A DNA stretch of 64,000 bases from Terriglobales bacterium (GCA_025936825.1 JAICSO010000010.1:80257-144256), one strand, 5' to 3'; numbered from the stretch's first letter, positions 20,577 through 60,067 are shown. Notes: generated by a model from the sequence alone, not told the origin. A program made the numbers and translations.

Positions 20577-20619
20577 TCGACAACCTCCACTTGGAGTACT
20601 GACGAAAGACAAAACCCTG

Positions 20620-20690
20620 AACCACAGAGGACACAAAGGTTCACAGAGGAACGCCACAGAGGTTCTCTGTGGTGCATCTGTGTAGCTCTG
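20620..20690. repeat. Intercistronic CACAGAGG repeat element with a perfect 8-bp hairpin
   Basis: CACAGAGGA occurs at 20623-20631 and 20642-20650, and CACAGAGG at 20655-20662. The third copy is the left arm of the perfect inverted repeat CCACAGAG (20654-20661) / GTT / CTCTGTGG (20665-20672). The element lies in the 144-nt nasA-nirB spacer. Confidence 0.5.
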
Positions 20691-20720
20691 CGGCTGTTGT
20701 GATGGAGCTTTATCATTTCG

Positions 20721-24484: not shown

Positions 24485-24968
24485 ATTCCTCCGGCCGTTC
24501 GAGAGACACTGATCCCACGTTGAGATGACCTGATGCCCGATCTTCAACAAAAGCAGGTGGACACCACTCACCTTGCTATGTAACTGAGCTTCTTGCTGGA
24601 TACGGCCCGGTATCCGGAGGACTTCCAACTTCTGGGTTCGGGCCTCGAACAGGGAGGCGGGGTGCCAACTCCGCACGGGAGAACTGGCTGACGGGAAAAC
24701 TCGCGACTGGCACTAGGTAATCCAGTGAGCAGGTTCGCCGCGTCTTCTGACTCACTTGTAGCGGAGTCAAAAAAGCATTGGAAATTAAAAATTCTTTTGC
24801 CGGCGATAATCGGAAACCCAGTCGCTATTTCTTTGATTTTGCGTATCGAACTCGATCGGGCGCCGTGGGCACGTCAAATTCCTAAATGCACCTCATCGTT
24901 TTTTTGAATTGGGTGGCTACCGATTTTCTGTACTAATAGCAACAACCAACGCCATTGGAGGAACAAGC

Positions 24969-28807: not shown

Positions 28808-29620
28808 TCAGCTTAGAACCGGCGCCGGCTCGATGTTTTCGACCACATCGTGCCCCTCACTTGCCCGCATGATCGCAGCACAGAGAGCGAACCAAGCGGT
28901 GACCAGCAGCAGGTAGCCGAACCCAAGCCGCAGAACCATGCCCCAGGTTTGATCCGTCAAGGGCGAAGATTTGCGCGGCACCATCCATGCGAGATAGTAA
29001 GGAACATATGCGCCAATCACGAAACACACCGCATAAGCCAGCCAGAAGCGCCAGCGGCGGATCGGGCGAAAGGCTGGCGCGCTGAAGAATGCGCGAATGT
29101 TTTTCACTGCAACCTGTCCGCCGATCGGCAACAGCAGGATAGGCCACAAAAAGAAGTACACGAACCAGACTGCCCAGTGTGCCGCCGAGAACATACCTCG
29201 CGGCGTCACCTTCTTTCGCATCAAACCCGGTAATGAATGACGCGCATAACCGCCAGCTTGCTCGTCATAAGTCCAGAGCTGGCCGATCAGCCAAATCCCC
29301 AAGGCAAAGATGATCGCCCACAACAGAAACGCGGGAATCCGAGTAACGGAACGTTTGAGGGAAACCAGGAACCGCTGCTCTGATGCCAAACTAAAGAAAT
29401 CGAAGGTCGCGCTATGCAGCCATAGAGTAATGAAGGCTATTGCCAGTCCGCCAAGCACGGTCAGCATAACTTCCCAGCCGGTCTCCTCGGGGATGCGAAT
29501 CCAGTAGAAAAACGCAATCAGCAGCAACGCATTCGCAATCACATGAACAAGCCAAACCCGCTTGCTGCTCAACACCGCTGACAACGTATCGATCTCAAAA
29601 CCGCGCGTGTCGGTGCTCAT
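28808..29620 (-). CDS. Polytopic inner-membrane protein of unknown family (~6 TM), coupled to the alpha-2-macroglobulin gene
   Basis: The track ORF runs to 29824, inside the A2M gene. The in-frame ATG at 29620 forms an ATGA overlap with the A2M stop (29617-29620). The product is MSTDTRGFEIDTLSAVLSSKRVWLVHVIANALLLIAFFYWIRIP... with about six hydrophobic helices. I recognise no family motif. Confidence 0.6.
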   Translation of the reverse strand: MSTDTRGFEIDTLSAVLSSKRVWLVHVIANALLLIAFFYWIRIPEETGWEVMLTVLGGLAIAFITLWLHSATFDFFSLASEQRFLVSLKRSVTRIPAFLLWAIIFALGIWLIGQLWTYDEQAGGYARHSLPGLMRKKVTPRGMFSAAHWAVWFVYFFLWPILLLPIGGQVAVKNIRAFFSAPAFRPIRRWRFWLAYAVCFVIGAYVPYYLAWMVPRKSSPLTDQTWGMVLRLGFGYLLLVTAWFALCAAIMRASEGHDVVENIEPAPVLS

Positions 29621-48264: not shown

Positions 48265-51200
48265 GTGTTGACTAAATTATTCGGCTGGCGTTTCCGCTCC
48301 TCTGATTGCTCCCAAAATTCTGTTCAAGATCCCCGAGTGTTATGGCGTCGCTTCGCATTTGCGGTCATTGTTCTTGCATTAACTGTGACGATTGGTTGCA
48401 ACCGCCAGCAGACTCAAATCTCTCGCCATCTGGACTTCAATCAGGACGTGCAGCCAATCCTTGCCAGCCGCTGCTTCAGTTGCCACGGCCCCGATCCGGA
48501 GATGCGCAAAGCGGGCCTGCGGCTTGATCTCGCGGAATGGGCGATGAGGAAGCGCGAGGGACATCGCGACGCGATTATCCCCGGCCATCCCGAGAAGAGT
48601 GAACTAGTCAAGCGAATCGAGTCGAAAGACCCGCACTACCTCATGCCGCAAAATGCGCAAGGCGAGGCTAAGCCGATGAGCGCCGGCGAGATCGCGATTT
48701 TGAAGGAGTGGATCAAGCAAGGCGCGGTCTATCGTCCGCATTGGGCTTTTGAAGCGCCGGTTCGACCAACTGTTCCTCACGATGCGCAAAGTGACGCTTG
48801 GGCCAGGAACGCGATCGACAATTTCATCTTCGCGAAACTGGACAAACAAGGTCTGCAGCCTTCTGCCGAGGCGGACAAGCCGGCGCTCATCCGACGAGTG
48901 ACATTGGATCTCACTGGCCTCTTGCCTTCGCCAGATGAGGTGCGCGCTTTCGTGAATGATTCATCGCCGGATGCATACGAGCATCTAGTCGATCGACTGC
49001 TGGCGCAGCCGACTTTCGGGGAGCAACGCGCGCGCTACTGGCTCGACTACGCCCGCTACGCGGATACGTATGGACTGCACTTCGATAACAGCCGTGACAT
49101 CTGGCCGTATCGCGATTACGTGATTCGCTCATTCAATAACAACAAACGTTTCGACCAATTTGCGATGGAGCAGATTGCTGGCGACTTGATGCCGATGAAG
49201 ACTCTCGATCCGCTAATCGGCAGCGGTTATGTGCGTCTGGGCGTCAGCAGCAACGAAGGTGGGACGATTCCGGAACAGTTGCGCGTCAACATCGCGCGCG
49301 AACGCACCGAAGCCTACGGCGCTACCTTCATGGGGCTGACCGTTGGTTGTGCGGTCTGCCACGATCACAAGTTCGATCCAACTACGCAGCGCGATTTCTA
49401 TTCTCTGAGCGCCTTCTTCAACAATCTGGATGAGAAGCCTTTCAACGACGATCGCCCGGTGTGGACGCCGGTGGTGCGAGTCCCAAAAGCCGCGGAGGAA
49501 GGGGCATACGACGGCGTGCTGGCGCGCCGGTCGGAGCTCCAGCAAAAACTGAATGCGATGCGTGTTGATGCCTCGAAATTGGTCGCGCAATGGCTGACGT
49601 CCAAGAAGGACCCGGCGCGTCCAGTTTCGATGGAAGGACTGGCAGTCCGATTGCGCCTTGATGAAGGTACCGGCGAGGCGTTGAAGAATAGCGCGCCCAA
49701 TGCGAACCCCGCCAGCTTTAAGACCACGACCATGAAACCGGAGTGGGGCGAGACCACGTGGCTGTGGCCTGATTTCCGTATGCAATCGAGTACGCGGGTG
49801 CTGCTGGGGCAGGCCGGCAATTACGAGGCCAGCCAAGCGTTCTCCGCGGGAGGCTGGTTCATGTTCCGGGCAGCCCCATTTCATCCGGGAAGTTACGGAA
49901 CGCTGATCTCGAAGATGGAATCTACGCAGCATGATCGCGGATGGGAACTGGCGGCCGATTACAACGGCGCAATCAGCGTAGCGTTGGTGAATCAGCGGCC
50001 GAAAGACGAAGGCGCACAGAAAAAAGCAGCAGACAAGAAAGACAAGAAGCAGACTTCAGAAAAGAAGCCGGCCGAAGCCAAGGAACCGTTCGACTATCCC
50101 ACGCCGCAGGACCTAAGCAAAAAGGACCTTGCGCCGAACAAGCCGCCCGAACAATTGAAGGCGGAGAAAGACGGAGAGAAGAAGGCAAAGGCAAAAGCTG
50201 CGGCGGAAGCAAAAGCGAAAAAAGCGCATCCCGACGAGACACCGCACGACAACACCCCTGACATCGCAATCCGCGTGGCGGCGCTGAAGCCTCTTCCACT
50301 CGACAACGCGTGGAAACATATCTTCTTTACGTACGACGGTTCGGGTCGCGCATCTGGAATCAAGATTTTCATTGACGGCGTTCAAGTCGCGACTCGCGTG
50401 CTTAACGACGATCTCGGCGGCGCGAGTATTCGTACCGATGCTCCATTGCAGCTTGGATGGCGCAATACCGAGGAGCATCCGGCGAAGGATGCTCGTTATC
50501 AAGATATTCGGCTATATTCTCGAGCCGTCACCACGGATGAAATGAAGCGCCTTCCCTTCGAAGATTATGTCGCAGAAATCGCAGCGCGGCCATCGGCGCA
50601 ATGGACAGAAGACCAGCGGCACGTGATCACCGAGTTCTACCTTAATAATATTGATCCCGTTTACCGTGGTATTAAGCACGAAATGGTCTCGATCGATCAG
50701 CAGTTGGACCATTTGTCTGCCGGCGGCAACTTGACGCAAGTCTCCTGGGAGAAATCCACTCTTCCGTACGCTCATGTGCTGACGCGGGGTATATATACCG
50801 CTCGCACGGAGCGGGTCGAAGCCAACACCCCACATTTTCTTCCACCGTTGCCGGCGAATGAACCGCGCAACCGGCTTGCGCTCGCGAAGTGGACTGTCAG
50901 CCCAGAGAATCCGCTAACCGCCCGGGTCACGGTCAATCGCATGTGGTACGAACTCTTTGGCACGGGTCTCGTGGAAACAACGGAAGACTTCGGGATCATG
51001 GGTCAGCGTCCGACGCATCCGGAGTTACTTGACTGGCTGGCGGTCGAATTTCGCGAAAGCGGATGGAACATCAAGCACATGTACAAGCTGATGGTGATGT
51101 CCGCGACGTACCGCCAGACTTCAAAAACCAGCCCGCAGCAATTGGCGAAGGACCCCAGAAATCAGTGGTTGTCGCGCGGTCCTCGGTTCCGCATGGATGC

Positions 51201-51816
51201 CGAGATGGTTCGCGATATTGCGCTCCAGTCGAGCGGCCTGTTGGTGACAAGGATCGGCGGGCCGAGCGTGAAGCCTTATCAACCGCCGGCCATTTGGGAG
51301 CAGGTGAGTTATCCGACGAGCGACACGGTTCATTACGCGCAGGAGCACGGGGATGCGCTCCACCGCCGCAGCATGTACACGTATGTGAAGCGCATGGCGC
51401 ATCTGCCCAACATGGATGCATTCGATGCCCCGGCGCGCGACGTGGTCTGCACCCGGCGGCAGCGCACCGACACTCCGCTCCAGGCCCTGGTGACGATGAA
51501 CGACGTGCAGTGGGTGGAAGCCGCCCGCGCCCTGGCAGAGCGCGTGATTCGCGAGGGTGGAGCGACACCCGAGAAGCGGATCAATCGCATGGCGCTCATC
51601 TTGCTTTCGCGCGTCCCAGCGCCACAAATGGCCGACGTCCTGGAAAAGTCATTCCTTGAAATGCAGAAACATTACGCCGCGAATCCGAAAGACGCTCATT
51701 CTCTCGTCAATATCGGTGAGAAAAAACGAGACAGTTCGATTCCCGAGCCGGAATTGGCTGCATGGACGATGATCGCCAACGAAATGCTGAATCTCGATGC
51801 GACCGTGAACAAGTAG
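48265..51816 (+). CDS. Large periplasmic PSCyt1 (CxxCH) - DUF1549/PSCyt2 - LamG-like - DUF1553/PSD1 protein
   Basis: 1183 aa. GTG start at 48265, with an alternative in-frame GTG at 48337 (VLWRRFAFAVIVLALTVTIGC). The haem-c motif is FNQDVQPILASRCFSCHGPDPEMRKAGLRLDL. The DUF1549 block is WARNAIDNFIFAKLDKQGLQPSAEADKPALIRRVTLDLTGLLPSPDEVRAFV. A CAVCHDHKFDP motif is present. The LamG-like block is IFFTYDGSGRASGIKIFIDGVQV. The DUF1553 block is VNRMWYELFGTGLVETTEDFGIMGQRPTHPELLDWLA. Confidence 0.85.
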   Translation: MLTKLFGWRFRSSDCSQNSVQDPRVLWRRFAFAVIVLALTVTIGCNRQQTQISRHLDFNQDVQPILASRCFSCHGPDPEMRKAGLRLDLAEWAMRKREGHRDAIIPGHPEKSELVKRIESKDPHYLMPQNAQGEAKPMSAGEIAILKEWIKQGAVYRPHWAFEAPVRPTVPHDAQSDAWARNAIDNFIFAKLDKQGLQPSAEADKPALIRRVTLDLTGLLPSPDEVRAFVNDSSPDAYEHLVDRLLAQPTFGEQRARYWLDYARYADTYGLHFDNSRDIWPYRDYVIRSFNNNKRFDQFAMEQIAGDLMPMKTLDPLIGSGYVRLGVSSNEGGTIPEQLRVNIARERTEAYGATFMGLTVGCAVCHDHKFDPTTQRDFYSLSAFFNNLDEKPFNDDRPVWTPVVRVPKAAEEGAYDGVLARRSELQQKLNAMRVDASKLVAQWLTSKKDPARPVSMEGLAVRLRLDEGTGEALKNSAPNANPASFKTTTMKPEWGETTWLWPDFRMQSSTRVLLGQAGNYEASQAFSAGGWFMFRAAPFHPGSYGTLISKMESTQHDRGWELAADYNGAISVALVNQRPKDEGAQKKAADKKDKKQTSEKKPAEAKEPFDYPTPQDLSKKDLAPNKPPEQLKAEKDGEKKAKAKAAAEAKAKKAHPDETPHDNTPDIAIRVAALKPLPLDNAWKHIFFTYDGSGRASGIKIFIDGVQVATRVLNDDLGGASIRTDAPLQLGWRNTEEHPAKDARYQDIRLYSRAVTTDEMKRLPFEDYVAEIAARPSAQWTEDQRHVITEFYLNNIDPVYRGIKHEMVSIDQQLDHLSAGGNLTQVSWEKSTLPYAHVLTRGIYTARTERVEANTPHFLPPLPANEPRNRLALAKWTVSPENPLTARVTVNRMWYELFGTGLVETTEDFGIMGQRPTHPELLDWLAVEFRESGWNIKHMYKLMVMSATYRQTSKTSPQQLAKDPRNQWLSRGPRFRMDAEMVRDIALQSSGLLVTRIGGPSVKPYQPPAIWEQVSYPTSDTVHYAQEHGDALHRRSMYTYVKRMAHLPNMDAFDAPARDVVCTRRQRTDTPLQALVTMNDVQWVEAARALAERVIREGGATPEKRINRMALILLSRVPAPQMADVLEKSFLEMQKHYAANPKDAHSLVNIGEKKRDSSIPEPELAAWTMIANEMLNLDATVNK

Positions 51817-51823
51817 AGGACCT

Positions 51824-53365
51824 ATGAAGCAGCACCCCTTGTGCACTGATTGTGAAGACAAGATCACGCCGATGGATTTGCCGATCCCGGCTGGGCTGAA
51901 ACACGAGTGGTCGAAATGCGAATCGCGTCGCCAATTTCTTGGACGCACCGGCAAGGTCCTGGGCTGGGCAGCGCTGGCTAGCCTTTTCGGCGAGGTGGGT
52001 CTTTATCATCGGGCCTTGGCGGCGGCGGAAGCGGCATCCGGAAAGGACAATCTCAGACTTCCCCATTTCGCGCCCACAGCGAAGCGCGCCATCTACCTTT
52101 TTATGTCGGGTGCGCCGCCGCAGGTGGATCTGTTCGATTACAAGCCGAACCTTACCGCTCAGTTCAATGCGGACATGCCCGCGTCTGTTCGGGGTAATCA
52201 GCAGTTGACCGGAATGACCGCCGGCCAGGCTCGCTTTCCGATCGCTCCCGCGCACTGGCCCTTCAATCAACATGGGCAGACCGGAACCTGGATCAGCGAC
52301 CTGCTTCCTCACACCTCGCGCATGGTGGATGACCTCACCTTTATAAAATCCACGAACACAGATGCGATTAACCACGAACCCGCCATCATGCTGATGAATA
52401 CCGGCAACATGAATGCCGGCAAGCCGTGTCTTGGCGCGTGGCTCGCATATGGCCTTGGCAGCATGAACGACAACCTGCCCACGTTTGTCGTTCTTCAGAC
52501 CAAGACGAACCCGAAGGAGAACAATCAGCCGGTTTCGTCACGTTTGTGGAGCAGCGGTTTTCTTTCTTCTGAATTTTCAGGCGTAGGCCTGCGGTCGGTA
52601 GGCGATCCCGTGCTTTACCTCGAAGATCCTGCTGGCGTCGACCGCGAAACGCGGCGCAAGATGCTGGACGCGGTAGAAGAAATTAATCGCCAAACGCTCG
52701 CCGAAGTCGGAGATCCGGAAACCAATTCGCGAATTGCTCAGTACGAGATGGCGTTCCGCATGCAATCTTCGGTGCCGGAATTGACGGACCTCAGCAAGGA
52801 ACCCGAGTCGACGTGGGAACTCTATGGTCCGGACGCGAAGGAACCAGGAACATTTGCCTACAATTGCCTGCTCGCGCGGCGCATGGCCGAACGCGGCGTC
52901 CGCTTCACGCAGGTTTATAAGCGGGGCTGGGACGTGCACGACAACGTTGTCGGGAACTTACCCGTGCTTTGCCAGGAAACAGATCGAGGATGTTATTCGC
53001 TAGTCACCGATCTCAAGCGCCGCGGCTTGCTCAACGACACGCTCGTGATCTGGGCGGGCGAATTTGGGCGCACCGTTTACAGCCAGGGTGGACTAAGCCA
53101 GGAAAACTATGGACGCGACCACCACCCGCGGTGCTTCACGGTGTGGATGGCCGGCGCGGGTGTGCGTCCCGGCGTCACATATGGGGAGACGGATGAGTAC
53201 AGCTACAACGTGGTGAAGGACCCGGTGCACGTGCGCGATTTCAACGCGACCATTCTTCATTGCCTCGGAATCGACCACAACAAATTCACTTACAAGTTTC
53301 AGGGCCTGGATCAAAAGCTCACCAGCCCGGTGCCGGCGTTTGTGGTTCAAGGGATTTTGGCGTGA
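51824..53365 (+). CDS. DUF1501 protein (sulfatase / alkaline-phosphatase-superfamily-like), Tat-exported
   Basis: 513 aa with GAGGA upstream of the ATG. The Tat-type motif is SRRQFLGRTGKVLGWAALASLF. LPHFAPTAKRAIYLFMSGAPPQVDLFDYKP and ...VIWAGEFGRT...GRDHHP... are the characteristic DUF1501 blocks. It starts 7 nt after the DUF1553 gene stop. Confidence 0.85.
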   Translation: MKQHPLCTDCEDKITPMDLPIPAGLKHEWSKCESRRQFLGRTGKVLGWAALASLFGEVGLYHRALAAAEAASGKDNLRLPHFAPTAKRAIYLFMSGAPPQVDLFDYKPNLTAQFNADMPASVRGNQQLTGMTAGQARFPIAPAHWPFNQHGQTGTWISDLLPHTSRMVDDLTFIKSTNTDAINHEPAIMLMNTGNMNAGKPCLGAWLAYGLGSMNDNLPTFVVLQTKTNPKENNQPVSSRLWSSGFLSSEFSGVGLRSVGDPVLYLEDPAGVDRETRRKMLDAVEEINRQTLAEVGDPETNSRIAQYEMAFRMQSSVPELTDLSKEPESTWELYGPDAKEPGTFAYNCLLARRMAERGVRFTQVYKRGWDVHDNVVGNLPVLCQETDRGCYSLVTDLKRRGLLNDTLVIWAGEFGRTVYSQGGLSQENYGRDHHPRCFTVWMAGAGVRPGVTYGETDEYSYNVVKDPVHVRDFNATILHCLGIDHNKFTYKFQGLDQKLTSPVPAFVVQGILA

Positions 53366-54792
53366 GCGTCGGTGCCAAGGTCGCGAGCCAGTCCAGAGAT
53401 GTGTGGCAAAAAGCGCGCCAAGGTCGACGGCCACGGGTCGTACTCGGCGCTGCGACTGTGCTTGTACTGCTCTCGCTGCTCTTCTTGCCTTTGAATGGTC
53501 AGCCGCATGCTGACTGGCTTCAATTCTTTGGCCGTTTTCATCCGCTGCTAGTGCATCTTCCTATCGGGCTCATCGTGCTCTTACCGGTGCTCGAAATTTT
53601 AGGAACGCGGCGTCCGGCGTTGCGAGAGGCAGCAGGGCTTGTGCTGCAGTTGGCGTTGGCGACGGTCCTGGTTGCGATTGTCTTTGGCGCTCTCTTGGCT
53701 TATGGCAGTGGTGAAAGTGGGACTACGGTCACGCGTCACCTGCGCGGCGGGATCCTTTTAGCACTCGAGTTAATGCTGTGCGTGGCGCTTCGGCGCACTT
53801 GGCTTGAGGCGCAACACACACGTGCGTATTTCGTCATGCTCGGTGTGGTTTTGCTCACCCTTACCTGGACCGCTCATCAGGGTGGATCGCTCACTTACGG
53901 CAGCGGCTATCTGACTCGCTACATGCCGCCTGCAATGAAGAGGTTTGTCGCACCAAGCGCGGTTTCATCGCATCCGAATTCTTTTTTCGCCAAGCACATT
54001 TACCCAGTTCTCGACACCAAGTGCGTCTCGTGTCATGGCACCACCAAGGAGCAGGGCGGCCTGCGGCTTGACTCCTACGAGTCGCTCATGGCGGGGGGCA
54101 AAGATGGGATCGTGATCGCCCCACGAAATCCTGATGGCAGTCTCCTATTGAAGAAGGTGACGCTTCCTCCGAGCGATCCTCACTTCATGCCTGCCGAAGG
54201 GCGCGCTCCACTTACACCTGACGAGATTGCGAGAATTCGCGCATGGGTATCCGCGGGAGCATCCCCTGAGGCGCGCAGCGTTCCAGGTATTTTCATCGCT
54301 GGGGATGAAGAGGAAGCGCCACCGCCAGTCGGGGACTACAGCGCGCTCATGCCTCAGATTCAACAGATGCAGATGTCGCAAGGGGCCAAGTTGGTACCAG
54401 TTTCGGCGGAACCGTCGGATGGTCTGATCCTGCGCACAACCGATGTGGCTTCAACCTTCGACGACGCACAGCTGGCAAAATTCCAGAAATTTGCTCTCTT
54501 CATTGTTGAGGCGGAACTCGGAAGAACTGCAGTCACTGACGACAGTATTTCCACGCTTATTCAGTTTAAGAATCTCCGCGCTCTTCACCTGGAAGGGACA
54601 GCGGTGACTGGCCGAAATCTTGCCAAGCTCACTTCCCTCCCGCAACTCGCCTACTTAAATCTCAGCGCAACCAAGGTGTCCAGCGATGCACTTGGACCAC
54701 TGAAAAACATGCCCAATTTACGACACCTTTATGTGTTCAATTCGCCCGCAGAACCCGCGTCGGCAGATAACTCCGTCAGGAGCACCCAATGA
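53362..54792 (+). CDS. Membrane protein: DUF2231-like 5-TM domain + PSCyt1 c-type cytochrome domain + leucine-rich repeats
   Basis: The track ORF starts at 53260, inside the DUF1501 gene. An in-frame GTG at 53362 forms a GTGA overlap with the DUF1501 stop. The TM region contains FGRFHPLLVHLPIGLIVLLPVLEILG (DUF2231-like). FFAKHIYPVLDTKCVSCHGTTKEQGGLRLDSYESLMAGG is a PSCyt1 CxxCH domain. The C-terminal LRALHLEGTAVTGRNLAKLTSLPQLAYLNLSATKVSSDALGPLKNMPNLRHLYVFNS is LRR-like. Confidence 0.7.
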   Translation: MSVGAKVASQSRDVWQKARQGRRPRVVLGAATVLVLLSLLFLPLNGQPHADWLQFFGRFHPLLVHLPIGLIVLLPVLEILGTRRPALREAAGLVLQLALATVLVAIVFGALLAYGSGESGTTVTRHLRGGILLALELMLCVALRRTWLEAQHTRAYFVMLGVVLLTLTWTAHQGGSLTYGSGYLTRYMPPAMKRFVAPSAVSSHPNSFFAKHIYPVLDTKCVSCHGTTKEQGGLRLDSYESLMAGGKDGIVIAPRNPDGSLLLKKVTLPPSDPHFMPAEGRAPLTPDEIARIRAWVSAGASPEARSVPGIFIAGDEEEAPPPVGDYSALMPQIQQMQMSQGAKLVPVSAEPSDGLILRTTDVASTFDDAQLAKFQKFALFIVEAELGRTAVTDDSISTLIQFKNLRALHLEGTAVTGRNLAKLTSLPQLAYLNLSATKVSSDALGPLKNMPNLRHLYVFNSPAEPASADNSVRSTQ

Positions 54793-55826
54793 CAAACCTC
54801 AATCGGCGAAACTTCATGAGCGTGGCAGGGATTGCAGCAGGCGCACCCGCGATGTCGACGCTTGCCATGGCGGAAGAGAGCAAGGCAAAATCGCCAGTGA
54901 TGACCGGAAACGGAGAATGGACCTACGAAGTTGTGACTGAATGGGGATCGCTGCCGCCAGGCACGTCTTTCGGTGGAACGCACGGCGCGATCGCGCAAGA
55001 TAATGCTGGCCAACTCTATGTCAGCACTCAGAGCACGACGGGAGTGCTTGTTTATAGCGAGGACGGCCGCTTGATCCGCACCATCGCCAACAATTATCCA
55101 GAAGTTCATTCCATGGTTCACGCCGAAGAGAATGGCGAGGAGTTCTTCTACTCCACCGTACAGAAGGGCACGCCGGCAGAAAACTGGTTATTCGTCAAAT
55201 TAAGAACGAACGGGGCCGTCGCCCTGAAGATCACCGCTCCTCCGGAGGCTGGATTCAAGGCTGCGAATGAATGGCGCCTTACTGCGGCAGTGCCTGCGCC
55301 GGACGGTTCCATCTTCATCGCCAACGGTTACGGAGACTCGCGTATTTTTCGCTTCGATAAGAATGGCAGCTACAAAGGAACCTTTGCCGAAAAGGGGAAG
55401 TTGGAAGGCCAACTCGACTGTAGCCACGGGCTGACCCTCGATACTCGCTATGACCAGCCGCTTCTTCTAGTTTGCGATCGCGAAAACCGGCGCTTGTGCC
55501 ACTTTGATCTGGACGGAAAATATGTCCGCACTGTGACCCAGCACCTGCGCCGCCCGTGTCAAGTGAGTTTGAGCGGAGATTATGCGATCGTTTCTGAATT
55601 GGAAGGACGGGTAACCATCCTCGACCGGGACAACACACCAGTTGCTTTTCTCGGCGACAATCCGCTAAAAACGCAATGGGCGAAGTACGAACTCGATCCG
55701 CACGACATCAATGCCGGCGTATTTAGCGCGGCCCATGGCTGCTTCGTTGATTCTGATCAAAACATCTTCGTCTCTGACTGGAACCTGACCGGCCGTGTCA
55801 CCAAACTCAGGAGGCGAAGGATCTGA
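54789..55826 (+). CDS. Tat-exported six-bladed beta-propeller protein (NHL-repeat / PAL-like)
   Basis: 345 aa. The start forms an ATGA overlap with the upstream stop. The Tat signal is MTNLNRRNFMSVAGIAAGAPAMSTLAMA. Repeated blade motifs are present (GQLYVSTQSTTGVLVYSEDGRLIR, GSIFIANGYGDSRIFRFDKNGSYKG, LLLVCDRENRRLCHFDLDGKYVR, NIFVSDWNLTGRVTKL). Confidence 0.7.
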   Translation: MTNLNRRNFMSVAGIAAGAPAMSTLAMAEESKAKSPVMTGNGEWTYEVVTEWGSLPPGTSFGGTHGAIAQDNAGQLYVSTQSTTGVLVYSEDGRLIRTIANNYPEVHSMVHAEENGEEFFYSTVQKGTPAENWLFVKLRTNGAVALKITAPPEAGFKAANEWRLTAAVPAPDGSIFIANGYGDSRIFRFDKNGSYKGTFAEKGKLEGQLDCSHGLTLDTRYDQPLLLVCDRENRRLCHFDLDGKYVRTVTQHLRRPCQVSLSGDYAIVSELEGRVTILDRDNTPVAFLGDNPLKTQWAKYELDPHDINAGVFSAAHGCFVDSDQNIFVSDWNLTGRVTKLRRRRI

Positions 55827-55961: not shown

Positions 55962-58301
55962 TTGACCATACCTAGCGATTTCACTCGTAGAACATTTCTG
56001 CAATCGGCTGCACTCTCTGGTATCGCCGTGGCCGCTCCGAAGGCATGGTCGCTATCCGCAGCCGAATCTGCTTCCGACGAAGATCTCACGCAGTTTGTCG
56101 ACATTTTTATTGGCACCGGTGGGCACGGGCATACATTCCCTGGACCGACCGTGCCGTTCGGAATGGTGCAATTGAGTCCCGACACATGGAACGTCGACTG
56201 GGACCACTGCTCGGGTTATCACATCAGTGACACGTCTATCATGGGTTTCAGCCACACCCACCTGAGCGGCACGGGGGCAGCAGACTTGCTTGACGTCCTG
56301 CTCATGCCCGCGGTTGGACCTGTGCGCACTGAGCCAGGTCCGCGTGACAATCCGACCTCTGGATATCGTTCGCGCTTTTCGCATCAAGATGAACACGCGG
56401 AGCCCGGCTACTATTCGGTGCTGCTCAAGGACTACGGAATTCGCGCAGAGCTGACGACAACGGCTCGCGTCGGCCTGCATCGCTATACCTTTCCGGCAGA
56501 TCCGACGAGTCATTTCATCGTTGATCTCGAACACGGTGTTTGGAATTCCGACACCAAGCCGAATCCAACGCAGGTTCTGTCCGCTGAGATAAAGGTAGTC
56601 GGAAACGATACCGTGGTTGGCGGGCGACGCGTCGGCGCGTGGGCGAACGGGCGATACGTATTTTTCGCAATGCGCATGTCGCGGCCTTTCTCCAGTGCGC
56701 AAATCGTGGCTGACAGCAAGGCACTGGAGCCATCAGTAAACGAGGCGAAGGCGACGTCGCTGAAGTGCGTACTCTCTGTCCCGACCTCTCATGACGAAGT
56801 CATCCACGTTAAAGTCGGGATCTCTGCGGTGAGTGTCGAAGGGGCCTTGAGGAACCTGGAAGCGGAAGTTCCGGCATCGGACTTCGACGGTGCTAGGCGG
56901 GCCGCAAAGCAGGCTTGGCAACGCGAGCTATCAAGAATTCGGATCGAGACCACGCGTGCCGATCACCGGAAGATCTTCTACACGGCGCTGTACCACGCGA
57001 TGGTGGCGCCTTCGCTGTTCAGCGATGTTGATGGTCAGTATCGAGGGATGGACCTGCAGGTTCACAAGCTTCCTGCCGGCGAGAACAACTACACCACCTT
57101 TTCTTTGTGGGACACCTACCGCGCTCTGCACCCGCTCTACACGCTGATTCAAACCGACCGCCTTCCCGATCTGCTCAACACGCTGATTCGCATGGCGGAA
57201 CAGAGCCCTGCAGGAGTGCCGGTTTGGCCACTCTACGCAGTGGAAACCGGATGCATGATCGGGTATCACTCCGCGCCCGTTCTCGCGGAGGCGCACATCA
57301 AGGGCGTCAAGGGAGTGGATTATGCCAAGGCATATTCGCTGTGGCGAAAGCGGGCATTCGTCGACAATTACCGCGGACTGATTCAATATCGCGATCTCGG
57401 CTACATTCCGTGCGACCAGGAAGATGAATCCGTCAGCAAGACGCTAGAGTATGCCTACGACGATTGGGCGGTTGCGCATCTCGCGCGTGCCGCGGGGGCG
57501 ACCGAGGACTACAGGCTGCTGCTGCAACGCTCCCGCAATTACAAGAACGTGTTCGACGGATCGAGTACATTCATGCGGGGGCGTCTGGCAAATCATCAGT
57601 GGGCTGACCCATTCGATCCGCGCGGAATGGGGCACTCTAAAAAGTGGCGCGATTTCACCGAGAGCAATTCCTGGCAGGCCACATTCCTCAACCAGCATGA
57701 CCTTTATGAGTACATGAAATTGTTTGGCGGGGAGGAAGGATTCGTTCGCAAATTGGATGAGCTATTCAATCAAAGTTCTGAGCTTCCTCCGGATGCTCCG
57801 CCTGACATTGCAGGGATGGTCGGCCAATACGCCCATGGCAACGAACCTGGGCATCATGTTGCTTATCTCTACTCCTACGCCGGAGCGCATTACAAGACGC
57901 AGGCCCGCGTGCGATTTCTGCTAGACACAATGCATCATGCGGATCCGGACGGTCTTGCCGGAAACGAAGACTGCGGACAGATGTCTGCCTGGTACATCAT
58001 GAGTGCACTCGGGCTCTACGCGGTGGACCCTGTCAGCGGGAATTACGTTTTCGGGAGTCCGCTCTTTGATCGTGCCACAATCCAACTTGCAGGCGGAAAA
58101 CGATTGACGGTAGAAACTGTCGGCAACGGTGCCGACAGGCCATACATTCAGTCAGTGAGCTGGAATGGAAATCCGTACAGGAAGAGCTGGATCCGTCATG
58201 CGGACCTCATTGGGGGCGGAACCCTGACGTTCCACATGGGCGCACAGCCGAATACCGGATTCGGCGCAACGCCGGAAGACCGACCACCATCATTCGCATG
58301 A
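55962..58301 (+). CDS. GH92-family alpha-mannosidase, Tat-exported
   Basis: 779 aa. The TTG start follows AGAGGA. The Tat signal is MTIPSDFTRRTFLQSAALSGIAVAAPKAWS. FVDIFIGTGGHGHTFPGPTVPFGMVQLSPDT is the hallmark GH92 N-terminal block. GNEPGHHVAYLY and GNEDCGQMSAWY are the conserved C-terminal catalytic blocks. Confidence 0.9.
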   Translation: MTIPSDFTRRTFLQSAALSGIAVAAPKAWSLSAAESASDEDLTQFVDIFIGTGGHGHTFPGPTVPFGMVQLSPDTWNVDWDHCSGYHISDTSIMGFSHTHLSGTGAADLLDVLLMPAVGPVRTEPGPRDNPTSGYRSRFSHQDEHAEPGYYSVLLKDYGIRAELTTTARVGLHRYTFPADPTSHFIVDLEHGVWNSDTKPNPTQVLSAEIKVVGNDTVVGGRRVGAWANGRYVFFAMRMSRPFSSAQIVADSKALEPSVNEAKATSLKCVLSVPTSHDEVIHVKVGISAVSVEGALRNLEAEVPASDFDGARRAAKQAWQRELSRIRIETTRADHRKIFYTALYHAMVAPSLFSDVDGQYRGMDLQVHKLPAGENNYTTFSLWDTYRALHPLYTLIQTDRLPDLLNTLIRMAEQSPAGVPVWPLYAVETGCMIGYHSAPVLAEAHIKGVKGVDYAKAYSLWRKRAFVDNYRGLIQYRDLGYIPCDQEDESVSKTLEYAYDDWAVAHLARAAGATEDYRLLLQRSRNYKNVFDGSSTFMRGRLANHQWADPFDPRGMGHSKKWRDFTESNSWQATFLNQHDLYEYMKLFGGEEGFVRKLDELFNQSSELPPDAPPDIAGMVGQYAHGNEPGHHVAYLYSYAGAHYKTQARVRFLLDTMHHADPDGLAGNEDCGQMSAWYIMSALGLYAVDPVSGNYVFGSPLFDRATIQLAGGKRLTVETVGNGADRPYIQSVSWNGNPYRKSWIRHADLIGGGTLTFHMGAQPNTGFGATPEDRPPSFA

Positions 58302-58349
58302 ACAAGATCAGCTACTCTTTACGCGCCTAAAGCCGATTTCAGTTTGTGC

Positions 58350-58374
58350 TTAGGGCCGGATCTCCCGGCCCTAA
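58350..58374. terminator. Hairpin between convergent genes (possible bidirectional terminator)
   Basis: TTAGGGCCGG (58350-58359), loop ATCTC, CCGGCCCTAA (58365-58374). This is a perfect 10-bp stem lying between the GH92 stop (58301) and the PNGase-like stop (58382). There is no clear U-tract on either strand. Confidence 0.5.
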
Positions 58375-58381
58375 ACTCAAC

Positions 58382-60067
58382 TCAGTGGCAACCGGTGCTA
58401 ACGGATGTCAGCACATTGTTAGTCGATGCAATTTTGCAATCGTACGACTGCCCTTTCAAATCCACGTAGGTGTAGTGCTGCGAACTTGAAGGCGGTTGGA
58501 CGTCGGATGCTTGCGCGGCATTCGTGACAGCGGTGTATGTCCCGAGGTGTCCGTTCACCAGCGTGAGCTTGCTGTCTTGATATTTCTGCGATGTCGCAAC
58601 GGTGAAGCCGAACAACGAGTTCGCCACGGGAGCAATAAAGTCGACGCTGATCGGGAAGCTGAACAACTCCTGGGTTGTGGTCGACCCGGTGTTGTCAGAG
58701 ACGGTCGTGGACGACAGAACGCTGTTTTGAACGGATGTGTTCTGATCGATCACAGAACCGTTCACCGTGTCGAAGTCGATGGTCTGCGTGCTTGTGAAGT
58801 TCTGCTGCTGGGTTAATGAAGTGGCAACCTGACCATGCGATGTGTTGGCGTACCCCGCGATGGTGAAGTTCCGATTCGAAGTCACGGCGATCGCGCCAGT
58901 CACTGTCGAGGTGCCTTGCAGGTTCTCGCTTACTGCAGGGGAAGGCAACGTGAGCGTATTCTGCGTTACCGTGCCCGTTACCTGGCTGCTGCCGGAGTCC
59001 AGGAACAGCAGAAGCGAGGAGGTCATGCTGAAATAGAAATCATTGTTGAACACGCTTAGGGCGATCGTGTGCGGATTGCCATCGTTCAGCATTCCCACGA
59101 ACGGCGTAAGGTTCACTCGAAAAGGAACAAAGTCGAGCGTCTGTACTGCGGGGATAGGTCGCCACTGGTCTGGAAGGAATCCGGTGTAAACCCATGGCGA
59201 AACTGGAGCGATGCCCGCCGGCTGGCCATCGATCGAAATCTCGGTTTCGCGAAAATCGGTATTGCCACAACCATAGACTTCGTTGATGCCGCTCAAATCG
59301 TTGGGGAAGCATGCATACCACTGCTCATCCACGTTCTGACTCTGCGCGATGACGTCCAGATAAGCGCCCTCAATGTTCTGCGGCAAATTGAAAGTCGTAG
59401 TGAGTTGGTCGGTGGGCTGGAAAACATTCGCAGGAAGATTGATGCCGCCGCCGGAGTTGGTTTGTACCATGGGCAACACCAAGTCCGGGGTACGTGGCAC
59501 AGGGCTCTTCCCGTATCCCGGATAAAACTCAAGATCAGCACTCACGGTGAAGACCCCGTTCAGCAGCGTGTTATACGGCGCGCCGCAGTCGGTGGTGCAG
59601 TTCGCCAGCACGAACGTGCCCTGCTGTCCAGAGGTGAGCAGCGCGCTGTAATCGGTTACATCCCGTTCGATGTGCCAGGCATTCGGAGAAGAATGGATCG
59701 GCTCGGGAGTTGTTCCGAAGTAAAGGTTGTTATTCCCAAGGAACAGGCTTGCGGTGCGGTCGAATTGGCGGCCGGCGTTCTCGGAGAAATTGATTTCGAG
59801 TACAACCTTCTGCCACGGACCGGAACACCCAGCGGGTGGGTTGAAGGAGAAGTTCTGGGCGGTTTGCGAAAAGAACGCAAACTGGTAATTGGTGAAGAGC
59901 GGGACGACACAGGGTTGTAGGTGAGGCCGTGAGACAACAGGGTCAGCGGTGGCCGTCAGCGAAGTTCCAATCTGCCGGTTCGTGCTTTGCGCGAATGCGG
60001 GAACGCGTAGCGTTAGTGCGGTAGCAATGCACAGTAATGCGACGAGAGCATACTTCCTGGAAAACAT
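58382..60067 (-). CDS. Peptide-N4-(N-acetyl-beta-glucosaminyl)asparagine amidase A-type (PNGase A / PNGase H+-like) secreted protein
   Basis: 561 aa with signal MFSRKYALVALLCIATALTLRVPAFA. PCVVPLFTNYQFAFF...FNPPAGCSGPWQKVVLEINFSENAGRQFDRTASLFLGNNNLYFGTTPEP...WHIERDVTDYSALL follows the PNGase A domain pattern as I recall it (y.PP..C.g.W.kvvL......GRQfDR...l.lg.....r.sT.EP....W....DVT.Y..LL). Confidence 0.65.
   Translation of the reverse strand: MFSRKYALVALLCIATALTLRVPAFAQSTNRQIGTSLTATADPVVSRPHLQPCVVPLFTNYQFAFFSQTAQNFSFNPPAGCSGPWQKVVLEINFSENAGRQFDRTASLFLGNNNLYFGTTPEPIHSSPNAWHIERDVTDYSALLTSGQQGTFVLANCTTDCGAPYNTLLNGVFTVSADLEFYPGYGKSPVPRTPDLVLPMVQTNSGGGINLPANVFQPTDQLTTTFNLPQNIEGAYLDVIAQSQNVDEQWYACFPNDLSGINEVYGCGNTDFRETEISIDGQPAGIAPVSPWVYTGFLPDQWRPIPAVQTLDFVPFRVNLTPFVGMLNDGNPHTIALSVFNNDFYFSMTSSLLLFLDSGSSQVTGTVTQNTLTLPSPAVSENLQGTSTVTGAIAVTSNRNFTIAGYANTSHGQVATSLTQQQNFTSTQTIDFDTVNGSVIDQNTSVQNSVLSSTTVSDNTGSTTTQELFSFPISVDFIAPVANSLFGFTVATSQKYQDSKLTLVNGHLGTYTAVTNAAQASDVQPPSSSQHYTYVDLKGQSYDCKIASTNNVLTSVSTGCH

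What the first reader, a model, noticed from the sequence alone, without database searches (positions are those of the whole stretch)
48265..55826. Four-gene operon of exported unknown-function proteins: PSCyt1-DUF1549-LamG-DUF1553 / DUF1501 / DUF2231-PSCyt1-LRR / NHL propeller
Seen in the sequence: four same-strand genes are packed with a 7-nt gap, a GTGA overlap and an ATGA overlap, which suggests translational coupling. All four products are directed outside the cytoplasm. These are a signal-anchored giant protein, a Tat-type DUF1501, a 5-TM protein whose CxxCH and LRR parts should face the periplasm, and a Tat-signal NHL propeller. Two independent CxxCH haem-c domains (CFSCHG, CVSCHG) flank a sulfatase-fold protein. 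Established knowledge: DUF1549/DUF1553 + DUF1501 pairs are abundant in Planctomycetota, Verrucomicrobiota and Acidobacteriota, and to my knowledge they have no experimentally assigned function. Inference: adding a membrane-embedded cytochrome/LRR protein and an NHL (PAL-like) propeller makes this look like a complete periplasmic redox or hydrolytic module with its own membrane electron-transfer or docking component. It is my best candidate for an undescribed system in this window.
Basis: partly seen in the sequence, partly recalled or inferred. Interest (0 to 1): 0.7.

Follow-up and report, generated by a model that had tools for sequence, protein, structure and literature searches.

The report
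Conserved four-gene periplasmic cytochrome–DUF1501 module
Four tightly packed genes in a soil acidobacterium encode exported proteins of unknown function that stay together across at least two bacterial phyla, which extends a long-known but unexplained gene pair with a membrane cytochrome and a lyase-like propeller and gives concrete ways to test what the pair does.

Summary
Four same-strand genes (48265–55826) carry the stated domains and junctions: a 7-nt gap, a GTGA overlap and an ATGA overlap.

- **Synteny.** In 65 species-level Terriglobales genome loci, G3 follows G2 in 63/65, G1 precedes in 56/56 and G4 follows in 48/65. No other flanking gene recurs comparably. The NTGA overlaps are conserved (47/50 and 40/43).
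- **Distant relatives.** G3 relatives at 27–41% identity still sit beside the G1/G2 pair, in Bacteroidota and in unclassified lineages. Three of these loci also carry a G4 homologue, once in permuted order. A natural fusion, DUF2231-PSCyt1-PSCyt2-PSD1, sits next to a DUF1501 gene.
- **Corrections.** G1 is probably a lipoprotein and has a second invariant CxxCH in PSCyt2. G2 lacks the formylglycine sulfatase motif, and its sulfatase-type fold has only weak support. G4 keeps the Zn-ligand histidines and catalytic tyrosine of peptidylglycine-amidating lyase (PAL). G4 is facultative, absent from about a quarter of loci.
- **Prior knowledge.** The G1/G2 pair was described bioinformatically in 2012 with function unknown. 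I found no description of the G3/G4 extension.
- **Best model.** A membrane-tethered periplasmic complex in which a haem-c relay links a DUF2231 membrane domain to the DUF1501 enzyme, and the PAL-like propeller processes the product. The chemistry is unknown.

The parts
48265..51816 (+). G1: a probable lipoprotein with the architecture PSCyt1 - PSCyt2 (DUF1549) - LamG - PSD1 (DUF1553). The likely true start is GTG 48337.
   Evidence: ORF and Pfam. Homologue alignments start at about residue 24-45 of the ORF. A profile search against PDB finds PSCyt1 similar to the FoxE cytochrome c (1.8e-7) and the LamG region similar to the neurotoxin Hc lectin domain (5e-8). It finds nothing for PSCyt2 or PSD1.
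48337..48399 (+). G1 signal peptide ending in the lipobox T-I-G-C (Cys45 at 48397-48399).
   Evidence: Read from the sequence. Equivalent G-C or S-C lipoboxes occur in the Occallatibacter, AB60 and Muriicola homologues. Lipidation is inferred.
48472..48486 (+). G1 haem-c motif 1, C70-F-S-C-H74 (PSCyt1). The probable distal ligand is Met127.
   Evidence: The two Cys, the His and the Met-Pro are invariant across phyla.
49348..49362 (+). G1 haem-c motif 2, C362-A-V-C-H366 followed by D-H-K-F-D-P, inside PSCyt2.
   Evidence: C, C, H, H, D and P are invariant in all eight aligned homologues from different lineages.
49999..50262 (+). K/E/A-rich low-complexity insert within the G1 LamG region.
   Evidence: It is present only in the Terriglobales homologues.
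50869..51645 (+). G1 PSD1 (DUF1553) domain.
   Evidence: Pfam 1e-96. No solved relative by sequence.
51817..51823 (+). 7-nt G1-G2 spacer containing an AGGA Shine-Dalgarno-like motif.
   Evidence: The spacer is 6-16 nt in 41 of 44 related loci.
51824..53365 (+). G2: a DUF1501 protein with a twin-arginine signal (R35-R36 at 51926-51931).
   Evidence: Pfam 1e-147. The RR and Phe are invariant across phyla, and cross-phylum identity is 53-55%. No PDB relative by sequence. A low-confidence AF2 model (pLDDT 46) hits only alkaline-phosphatase-superfamily structures, weakly. No formylglycine motif.
53362..54792 (+). G3: a membrane cytochrome with a 5-TM DUF2231 domain, a PSCyt1 haem-c domain and an LRR domain. 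Its GTG start overlaps the G2 stop (GTGA).
   Evidence: The stop/start overlap (NTGA) is conserved in 47/50 loci.
53431..53877 (+). G3 DUF2231 transmembrane domain (about residues 24-172). His60, His65 and His126 are invariant and lie at the predicted periplasmic ends of TM2 and TM4.
   Evidence: Helices come from the AF2 secondary structure and the hydropathy scan. The residues are invariant in 37 sequences of 27-56% identity. The topology (N-in, C-out) is inferred from the K/R distribution and from the need for periplasmic haem attachment.
54022..54189 (+). G3 PSCyt1 haem-c domain: C221-V-S-C-H225 through to the probable distal ligand Met276.
   Evidence: C221, C224, H225 and M276 are invariant family-wide.
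54502..54759 (+). G3 leucine-rich-repeat domain (about residues 381-466).
   Evidence: Profile search against PDB LRR ectodomains, 3e-8. Foldseek hits for the AF2 model are LRR proteins, weakly, with best E 1.5e-2.
54789..55826 (+). G4: a Tat-signal (R6-R7 at 54804-54809) six-bladed NHL beta-propeller with a PAL-like metal site (H107, Y181, H213, H316). Its ATG overlaps the G3 stop (ATGA).
   Evidence: In the Muriicola homologue the residues equivalent to H107, Y181 and H316 align to PAM His585, Tyr654 and His786. H213 falls in the stretch aligned to PAM 640-700, which contains His690. The overlap is conserved in 40/43 loci. The catalytic residue numbers for PAL are from my own knowledge of the PAL structure paper (Chufan et al. 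2009).

Best explanation
The four genes encode one co-functioning envelope module. Three are core components and one is an accessory.

**Shown here**
- G1 (PSCyt1-PSCyt2-LamG-PSD1), G2 (DUF1501) and G3 (DUF2231-PSCyt1-LRR) are an essentially invariant, translationally overlapped trio.
- G4, a PAL-like NHL propeller, joins them in about three quarters of loci.
- This holds across Terriglobales and in lineages as distant as Bacteroidota.

**Inferred mechanism**
1. G1 is lipid-anchored in the periplasm. It binds a glycan-like substrate through its LamG lectin domain and carries two c-type haems.
2. G2 is exported folded by the Tat pathway. It is the catalytic subunit, with an alkaline-phosphatase-superfamily-type fold, but it is not a formylglycine sulfatase.
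3. G3 sits in the cytoplasmic membrane. Its DUF2231 helices hold three invariant histidines near the periplasmic face, which could bind a haem or another metal.
4. The G3 periplasmic haem-c domain relays electrons between the membrane and the G1 haems, and so to G2. The G3 LRR domain docks the partners.
5. G4 is a Zn-type lyase like PAL. It cleaves an unstable hydroxylated or otherwise activated product of the G1/G2 reaction. That step could also occur spontaneously, which would explain why G4 is dispensable.

The direction of electron flow, the substrate and the chemistry are unknown.
For: **Co-location**
- Genome loci: G2 63/65, G1 56/56, G4 48/65.
- Metagenome loci: 55/55, 34/34, 44/56.
- Only these four families recur widely in the flanks; the next most frequent occurs in 18 of 68 loci.
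- Stop/start overlaps are conserved: 47/50 for G2/G3 and 40/43 for G3/G4.

**Distant loci**
- L072: G1-G2-G3.
- L074/L075 and L159: G1-G2-G3-NHL.
- Muriicola L157: G1-G2-propeller-G3, with the order permuted. The propeller is 26% identical to G4 at E 2e-37.
- Algoriphagus L158: G1-G2-G3.

**Fusion evidence**
- One protein (P0336) carries DUF2231-PSCyt1-PSCyt2-PSD1 and is followed by a DUF1501 gene.

**Electron-wire character of the G3 family**
- Relatives carry a DUF2231 domain followed by one to six PSCyt1 domains.
- PSCyt1 resembles the cytochromes c FoxE, the hydrazine-synthase alpha haem domain and PccH.
- All three CxxCH motifs are invariant. The distal Met is invariant for the two PSCyt1 motifs.

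**G4 active site**
- H107, Y181 and H316 align with PAL Zn ligands 585 and 786 and with Tyr654.

**G2**
- It is 53-55% identical between phyla, which suggests one conserved catalytic function.
- Every one of the 50 Foldseek hits listed for its poor model belongs to the alkaline-phosphatase superfamily.
Against: - There are no expression, protein or activity data. Co-transcription is inferred only from spacing, and the promoter/terminator scans were at chance level.
- The AF2 models of G3 (pLDDT 59.5) and G2 (pLDDT 45.8) are poor. The fold of G2 and the geometry of the DUF2231 His site are therefore not established.
- No known alkaline-phosphatase-superfamily enzyme needs an electron supply, so a redox role for G2 has no precedent.
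- All invariant DUF2231 histidines lie on one side of the membrane. That does not resemble a classical two-haem transmembrane electron carrier.
- G4 is missing from about 25% of Terriglobales loci and from several distant loci. In one clade it is replaced by a methyltransferase.
- The taxonomic breadth rests on a handful of distant loci that I picked individually.
Confidence: 0.5

Rival explanations
1. Purely hydrolytic nutrient-scavenging module. G2 is a phospho- or sulfo-esterase-type hydrolase. G1 presents the substrate through its LamG domain. G3 is only a membrane tether or a sensor, using its LRR as a ligand-binding ectodomain. The haems are structural or redox-sensing rather than an electron relay to the catalytic site.
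For: - All listed Foldseek hits of the G2 model are hydrolases or transferases of the alkaline-phosphatase superfamily.
- The LamG/lectin similarity of G1.
- In this window the neighbours include GH92 and a PNGase-A-like gene.
- He et al. 2017 link PSCyt genes to carbohydrate-binding modules and sulfatase neighbourhoods.
- No known enzyme of this fold needs electrons (my own knowledge).
Against: - Three CxxCH motifs are invariant across phyla, two of them with an invariant distal Met. That is costly to maintain for a structural role.
- The G3 family expands by adding up to six cytochrome domains, which is typical of electron wires.
- G2 lacks the formylglycine motif and has no Pfam Sulfatase hit.
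- The glycoside-hydrolase neighbours are not conserved with the cluster.
Confidence: 0.22
2. Only G1-G2-G3 form the functional unit. G4 is an independent periplasmic enzyme that happens to be a frequent downstream neighbour.
For: - G4 is absent from 17/65 genome loci and 12/56 metagenome loci.
- It is also absent from L072, L073 and L158.
- In L001/L007/L008 a methyltransferase takes its place.
Against: - G4 homologues are co-located in three independently sampled distant lineages, once between G2 and G3.
- The ATGA overlap with G3 is conserved in 40/43 loci.
- G4 is the only other flanking family that recurs widely, in 44 loci.
Confidence: 0.18
3. A respiratory or extracellular-electron-transfer conduit. 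In this reading the cytochromes move respiratory electrons to an external acceptor such as humics or metals, and DUF1501 is incidental.
For: - A membrane-anchored cytochrome plus a lipoprotein cytochrome.
- Relatives with many PSCyt1 domains.
- Acidobacteriota encode EET-like multihaem clusters (bioRxiv 10.64898/2026.05.27.727921).
Against: - The module has only three haem motifs and no porin or outer-membrane barrel conserved with it.
- The most conserved partner is the DUF1501 enzyme.
- The EET clusters in that preprint are described as porin-multihaem cytochrome clusters. In the passages read, PF07635 is mentioned only once and neither DUF1501 nor PSD1 appears.
Confidence: 0.05

Closest known systems
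The PSCyt1/PSCyt2/PSD1 + DUF1501 'conserved genetic module' of PVC bacteria (Kamneva et al. 2012, PMC3542564; domains first named by Studholme et al. 2004 in Rhodopirellula baltica).
   Same: - G1 has exactly the PSCyt1/PSCyt2/Laminin_G_3/PSD1 architecture described there.
- G1 lies directly beside a twin-arginine DUF1501 gene.
- The function is unknown in both cases.
   Different: - This example is in Acidobacteriota, with relatives in Bacteroidota.
- It carries two further conserved genes that the paper does not mention: DUF2231-PSCyt1-LRR and an NHL propeller. A text search of the paper found none of these terms.
- The four-gene version in the paper has different extras: a PPC-domain protein, a Big_2 insertion and a PSCyt1/WD40 protein.
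Peptidylglycine alpha-amidating monooxygenase system: the PHM copper hydroxylase plus the PAL zinc lyase, supplied with electrons across the membrane by cytochrome b561.
   Same: - G4 is a six-bladed NHL propeller.
- Its invariant His and Tyr residues align with the PAL Zn ligands and catalytic Tyr.
- The module also contains a His-rich membrane domain and electron carriers. The overall logic could therefore be similar: membrane electron supply, then a redox step, then a lyase step.
   Different: - No PHM-like copper monooxygenase is present.
- The putative redox partners are c-type haems and a DUF1501 protein.
- DUF2231 shows no detectable similarity to cytochrome b561.
- The analogy is a lead from my own knowledge, not a tested homology, except for the G4 active site.
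Alkaline-phosphatase superfamily enzymes: type I sulfatases, LtaS/EptA-type transferases and alkaline phosphatases.
   Same: - A weak structural match restricted to this superfamily.
- Conserved acidic and His motifs in G2 resemble the superfamily's metal-binding motifs: WDxH, GEFGRT and GRDHH.
- To my knowledge, Pfam places DUF1501 in the alkaline-phosphatase clan.
   Different: - No sequence-level hit to any solved member and none to Pfam Sulfatase.
- No formylglycine motif.
- The nucleophile is not identifiable.
- It is obligately paired with cytochrome proteins.
ScyF, the NHL protein of the scytonemin biosynthesis cluster.
   Same: NCBIfam's best hit for G4 is ScyF (9e-12). Both are exported NHL propellers encoded in clusters thought to carry out periplasmic chemistry.
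   Different: The score of 44.8 bits is far below the family cut-off of 350. G4 has no PEP-CTERM tail, and the genomic context is unrelated.

Membership tests
PSCyt/PSD1 + DUF1501 module (Kamneva 2012) | One protein combining the PSCyt1, PSCyt2 (DUF1549) and PSD1 (DUF1553) domains, optionally with Laminin_G_3. | tested here: met
   Pfam hits are all above the gathering scores.
PSCyt/PSD1 + DUF1501 module (Kamneva 2012) | An adjacent DUF1501 gene, often with a twin-arginine signal. | tested here: met
   G2 lies 7 nt downstream. DUF1501 scores 1e-147, and the RR motif is invariant.
Kamneva 2012 'most complex' four-gene cluster | A PPC-domain protein, a Big_2 insertion in the PSCyt/PSD1 protein, and a PSCyt1/WD40 protein. 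| tested here: not met
   None of PPC, Big_2 or WD40 was found in G1-G4. The extras here are DUF2231-PSCyt1-LRR and an NHL propeller.
Type I (formylglycine) sulfatases | (C/S)-x-(P/A)-x-R signature and a match to Pfam Sulfatase. | tested here: not met
   The motif is absent from G2 and from five of six cross-phylum homologues; the single SRAAR match in L072 is not at a conserved position. There is no Sulfatase hit at E<=10.
Alkaline-phosphatase superfamily (fold level) | The alpha/beta core fold shared with sulfatases, AP and LtaS. | tested here: inconclusive
   The AF2 model has pLDDT 45.8. All 50 listed Foldseek PDB hits are superfamily members, but they are weak (E 3e-4 to 1e-2, TM 0.15-0.3).
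c-type cytochromes | A CxxCH haem-attachment motif with a conserved distal ligand, in an exported domain. | tested here: met
   G1 has C70xxCH with M127, and C362xxCH. G3 has C221xxCH with M276. All are invariant. PSCyt1 is similar to FoxE and PccH.
c-type cytochromes | Covalently bound haem in the mature protein. | not testable with these tools
   This needs haem staining or mass spectrometry of the expressed protein.
DUF2231 membrane proteins (PF09990) | A match to the Pfam model above its gathering score. | tested here: met
   39.9 bits for the 510-aa ORF and 41.5 bits for the N-terminal segment, against a cut-off of 26.4.
PAL-type (peptidyl-alpha-hydroxyglycine lyase) NHL propellers | A six-bladed NHL beta-propeller. 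| tested here: met
   Sequence matches to NHL propeller structures: 1e-18 for the single sequence and 6e-31 for the profile. PAL scores 1e-6 and 4e-16.
PAL-type (peptidyl-alpha-hydroxyglycine lyase) NHL propellers | Zn ligands His585, His690 and His786, and catalytic Tyr654. | tested here: met
   The Muriicola homologue aligns its invariant His, Tyr and His to positions 585, 654 and 786. The same columns hold H107, Y181 and H316 in G4. H213 lies in the stretch aligned to PAM 640-700, so its match to His690 is by position only. The PAL residue numbers come from my own knowledge.
PAL-type (peptidyl-alpha-hydroxyglycine lyase) NHL propellers | Lyase activity on alpha-hydroxyglycine or carbinolamide substrates. 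| not testable with these tools
   This needs an enzyme assay.
Porin-multihaem cytochrome EET conduits (MtrCAB-like) | A multihaem cytochrome (four or more haems) with a co-encoded outer-membrane porin. | tested here: not met
   The whole module has three haem motifs. No barrel protein is conserved with it: an OMP_b-brl_4 gene is nearby in only 18/68 loci, at varying position and on either strand.

The most novel reading that the evidence does not exclude
The module could be a previously unrecognised periplasmic oxidoreductase system found in several phyla. In this reading a His-rich DUF2231 membrane domain exchanges electrons with the membrane pool. It passes them through three c-type haems to an alkaline-phosphatase-fold DUF1501 enzyme, which performs a redox, hydroxylation-type activation of a lectin-bound substrate. 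A PAL-like Zn lyase then cleaves the product.

That would be a bacterial functional analogue of the cytochrome b561 / PHM / PAL amidation system. It would also be the first redox role for this fold, and it would supply the missing function for the thousands of PSCyt/PSD1-DUF1501 pairs in Planctomycetota, Verrucomicrobiota, Acidobacteriota and Bacteroidota.
Probability: 0.15. Interest if true: 0.85.

Novelty: new variant of a known kind. Interest (0 to 1): 0.6.

Why it matters
PSCyt/PSD1 + DUF1501 pairs are among the most expanded gene families in Planctomycetota and Verrucomicrobiota. One paper notes that each of the two G1 domains occurs 41 times in Rhodopirellula baltica (PMC2754498). The pairs are also abundant in soil Acidobacteriota: several 90%-identity clusters of this G2 hold hundreds of metagenome sequences. 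Their function has been open since 2004-2012.

This variant adds three clues.
- A dedicated membrane cytochrome, G3, is genetically welded to the pair. It is even fused to a G1-like protein in one lineage. This argues that the pair really is wired to the membrane for electron transfer or docking.
- A lyase with a recognisable PAL-type active site hints at the kind of product formed.
- The variant occurs in cultured organisms (Occallatibacter savannae, Acidicapsa dinghuensis, Muriicola sp. Z0-33, Algoriphagus boseongensis). Knock-outs and biochemistry could therefore be attempted.

Tried and rejected
- **AF2 of G3**, using 23 homologues of 71-100% identity, gave pLDDT 59.5. Foldseek then found only LRR proteins and nothing for the DUF2231 domain.
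- **AF2 of G2**, using 42 homologues of 75-92% identity, gave pLDDT 45.8. A profile query built from cross-phylum DUF1501 sequences was meant to yield a more diverse alignment, but it returned only 75-92% identical Terriglobales proteins. The fold search is therefore only suggestive.
- **Sequence and profile searches of PDB** found no relative of DUF1501, PSCyt2, PSD1 or DUF2231.
- **Permissive Pfam scans** of G2 and of the G3 membrane segment gave no informative weak hits.
- **The metagenome scan** failed outright with a very diverse alignment. With a narrower alignment it returned only Terriglobales-like loci. Distant synteny therefore rests on individual look-ups.
- **Promoter/terminator and Rfam scans** of the locus gave nothing above chance.
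- **Taxonomy** of the distant loci L072, L074/L075 and L159 could not be established.
- **Attempts to display the PAL alignment around His690** for the window protein itself did not succeed.
- **Rejected: the downstream GH92 and the upstream MFS gene as part of the unit.** Neither is conserved next to the cluster in any other species-level genome locus. GH92 follows only in the near-identical contig L077.

Full report
**1. Observation**

The window holds four consecutive plus-strand ORFs:
- G1: 48265..51816, 1183 aa.
- G2: 51824..53365, 513 aa.
- G3: mechanical ORF 53260..54792.
- G4: 54789..55826, 345 aa.

A 7-nt spacer, 'aggacct', separates G1 from G2. A GTGA overlap at 53362-53365 joins G2 and G3. 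An ATGA overlap at 54789-54792 joins G3 and G4. More than 100 homologues of G3 are 474-477 aa long and align from residue 1, which fixes the G3 start at GTG 53362.

Pfam confirms the domain calls:
- G1: PSCyt1 (4.5e-14), PSCyt2/DUF1549 (2e-81), Laminin_G_3 (3.6e-11) and PSD1/DUF1553 (1e-96).
- G2: DUF1501 (1e-147).
- G3: DUF2231 (5.5e-10) and PSCyt1 (1.6e-11).

The G3 LRR is below Pfam thresholds. A profile of G3 homologues nevertheless hits LRR ectodomains in the PDB at 3e-8. G4 is barely detected by Pfam NHL. It matches solved NHL propellers at 1e-18, or 6e-31 with a profile. It also matches the PAL domain of peptidylglycine amidating monooxygenase at 1e-6, or 4e-16 with a profile.

GC content across the operon (0.55-0.58) matches the rest of the window.

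**2. Corrections to the anatomy**

- **G1 anchor.** G1 has a lipobox (L-T-V-T-I-G-C45). An in-frame GTG at 48337 would give a 21-residue lipoprotein signal peptide. Homologue alignments begin near there, and other homologues have similar lipoboxes. G1 is therefore more likely a lipoprotein than signal-anchored.
- **Second haem motif.** G1 carries a second CxxCH (C362-A-V-C-H-D-H-K-F-D-P) inside PSCyt2. It is invariant in all eight aligned homologues from different lineages. The operon thus encodes three haem-c motifs.
- **PSCyt1 identity.** A profile of G1 finds the dihaem cytochrome FoxE (1.8e-7), the haem-c part of hydrazine synthase alpha (2.6e-4) and PccH. PSCyt1 is therefore a genuine cytochrome-c-type domain. 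The LamG region matches lectin-like neurotoxin Hc domains (5e-8). PSCyt2 and PSD1 match nothing solved.
- **G2 signal.** The twin-arginine motif of G2 is invariant across phyla.
- **G2 is not a classical sulfatase.** G2 has no formylglycine signature and no Pfam Sulfatase hit even at E<=10. It has no sequence relative in the PDB.
- **G2 fold.** My AF2 model of G2 was poor (pLDDT 45.8). All 50 listed Foldseek hits were alkaline-phosphatase-superfamily proteins (LtaS/LtaP, sulfamidase, alkaline phosphatase, carrageenan sulfatases, arylsulfatase A, YejM), but the scores were weak. 'Sulfatase-type fold' is plausible but not established here.

**3. Synteny within Terriglobales**

A genome scan with a G3 alignment returned 68 loci, one genome per species. 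Nearly all are labelled Acidobacteriota/Terriglobales; two carry other MAG labels. They include the cultured Occallatibacter savannae, Acidicapsa dinghuensis and strain AB60.

- **Gene order.** A G2 homologue lies directly upstream of G3 in 63/65 loci, G1 upstream in 56/56 and G4 directly downstream in 48/65.
- **Independent sample.** A set of 80 metagenome contigs gave 55/55, 34/34 and 44/56.
- **Flank clustering.** All ORFs of 120 aa or more in the 68 genome loci were clustered. Only four families recur widely (63, 57, 55 and 44 loci). The next, a generic OMP_b-brl_4 barrel, occurs in 18 loci on either strand.
- **This window's neighbours.** The GH92 gene downstream and the MFS gene upstream are not conserved with the cluster.
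- **Junctions.** The G2/G3 stop-start overlap (NTGA) is present in 47/50 loci and the G3/G4 overlap in 40/43. The G1-G2 spacer is 6-16 nt in nearly all.
- **Where G4 is missing.** It is sometimes replaced. One clade has a SAM-methyltransferase in its place, with the same 4-nt overlap.

**4. Synteny at large evolutionary distance**

A profile search of 1.84 billion representatives found 2420 clusters at E<=1e-30, many matching G3 over its full length. I looked up the contigs of individual relatives at 27-41% identity:
- L072: G1-G2-G3.
- L073: DUF1501-G3 at a contig end.
- L074/L075: G1-G2-G3-NHL.
- L159: G1-G2-G3-NHL.
- Muriicola sp. Z0-33: G1-G2-propeller-G3, with the propeller before G3.
- Algoriphagus boseongensis: G1 (without LamG)-G2-G3.

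BLASTP confirms that the distant propellers are G4 homologues (26% identity at E 2e-37; 25% at 1e-19 to 1e-21). It also shows that G2 is unusually conserved, at 53-55% identity between phyla.

Named G3-family members come from Saprospiraceae, Microscillaceae, Cyclobacteriaceae, Muriicola, Cellulophaga and Algoriphagus.

One protein (P0336; its neighbouring DUF1501 clusters at 90% identity with a Lacihabitans protein) fuses DUF2231-PSCyt1 directly to PSCyt2-PSD1 and is followed by a DUF1501 gene. This is a Rosetta-stone link between the G3 membrane module and the G1/G2 pair. Other relatives carry a DUF2231 domain followed by up to six PSCyt1 domains and LRRs, an architecture typical of a membrane-anchored electron wire.

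**5. Conserved residues**

- **G3.** Across 37 G3-family sequences (27-56% identity) the invariant residues include H60, H65, H126, C221, C224, H225 and M276. From the predicted helices and the K/R distribution, the protein is N-in with five TM helices. The three histidines sit at the periplasmic ends of TM2 and TM4. The cytochrome and LRR domains are periplasmic. This suggests one haem or metal site near the outer face of the membrane, not a classical two-haem transmembrane carrier.
- **G4.** Across 15 G4-family sequences (down to 23% identity) H65, H107, Y181, H213, H316, D218, R220 and R231 are invariant.
- **G4 against PAL.** An explicit HMMER alignment of the Muriicola homologue to PAM places the H107-equivalent on His585, the Y181-equivalent on Tyr654 and the H316-equivalent on His786. 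The window protein's residues 167-223 align to PAM 640-700, the stretch that holds His690. From my knowledge of the PAL structure, those are the three Zn ligands and the catalytic tyrosine. G4 therefore very probably has a PAL-type metal site.

**6. Literature**

Kamneva et al. 2012 (PMC3542564) described DUF1501 next to PSCyt1/PSCyt2/PSD1 proteins, sometimes with Laminin_G_3. They called it a conserved, membrane-targeted, probably electron-transport module of unknown function. They also described a different four-gene version with PPC, Big_2 and PSCyt1/WD40. The paper mentions neither DUF2231, LRR, NHL nor propellers.

He et al. 2017 (PMC5615132) state that nothing is known about these functions. 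Only two papers in the library mention DUF2231, and from their titles and abstracts neither concerns its function. I found no experimental work on any of the four families.

**7. Interpretation**

Shown here: a three-gene core plus one frequent accessory, kept together and translationally overlapped across phyla, all with export or membrane signals and with three invariant haem-c motifs.

Inferred: the products form a periplasmic complex tethered by the G1 lipid anchor and the G3 membrane domain.
- The G3 haem relays electrons between the membrane site and the G1 haems, and so to G2.
- LamG binds a glycan-like substrate.
- The LRR docks partners.
- G4 cleaves a labile product.

The PAL analogy is attractive for two reasons. 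First, PAL's substrate also decomposes spontaneously (my own knowledge), which would fit G4 being dispensable. Second, PAL works downstream of a redox enzyme that is fed by a membrane cytochrome. This is a lead, not a result. No redox role is known for the alkaline-phosphatase fold, and my structure models were too poor to test geometry.

**8. Verdict**

The finding is a new variant of a known, unexplained module rather than a wholly undescribed system. Its value lies in the extra, cross-phylum conserved components and the fusion, which give testable handles on a long-standing unknown.

Noticed in passing
window 51824-51925 (G2 residues 1-34): Terriglobales G2 proteins have a conserved 34-residue extension before the twin-arginine motif. 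It contains a Cys pair (MKQHPLCTDCE...) that is absent from the Bacteroidota and other distant homologues. It could be a chaperone-recognition or metal-binding leader.
   Followed up: partly
window 49999-50262 (G1 residues 579-666): A K/E/A-rich low-complexity insert of about 88 residues sits inside the LamG region of G1. It is present only in the Terriglobales homologues.
   Followed up: partly
L001/L007 11428-12150; L008 2772-3494: In one Terriglobales clade a 240-aa SAM-dependent methyltransferase replaces the NHL propeller directly after G3, with the same 4-nt stop/start overlap.
   Followed up: partly
L160 883-6370; L161 1323-6378: In a Lacihabitans-like Bacteroidota lineage, the DUF2231-PSCyt1-PSCyt2-PSD1 fusion gene and its DUF1501 partner are preceded by a gene with vanadium-chloroperoxidase-like (VCPO_2nd/PAP2) domains.
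   Followed up: no
P0122 (905 aa), P0124, P0137: G3-family relatives carry a DUF2231 domain followed by three to six PSCyt1 cytochrome domains, some interleaved with LRRs. This is a large family of membrane-anchored multi-cytochrome proteins on which I found no published work.
   Followed up: partly
L031 11463-12518 (minus strand): A divergent NHL paralogue (32% identity to G4) lies convergent to G3, in place of the co-directional G4.
   Followed up: no
window 16518-24673 (minus strand): A nitrate-assimilation-like cluster: an MFS transporter, a NirB-like nitrite/sulfite reductase, a molybdopterin oxidoreductase, and an unusual single ORF that combines a 4Fe-4S dicluster domain with a DmsC-type membrane anchor (22922-24673).
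   Followed up: no
window 29617-34278 (minus strand): A 1553-aa bacterial alpha-2-macroglobulin with MG2, bait-region, TED and MG10 domains.
   Followed up: no
window 55962-60064: A GH92 alpha-mannosidase-type gene lies 135 nt downstream of G4 on the same strand, followed by a convergent PNGase-A-like gene. This suggests an N-glycan-processing neighbourhood, but it is not conserved with the four-gene cluster in other species-level genomes; GH92 follows only in the near-identical contig L077.
   Followed up: yes
L063, L010, L012, L056, L064, L067-L071: Several long-read-derived MAG loci (names beginning MFD) show the cluster genes broken into multiple ORFs. These are probably frameshift errors in the assemblies rather than pseudogenes, and they slightly depress the synteny counts.
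   Followed up: partly
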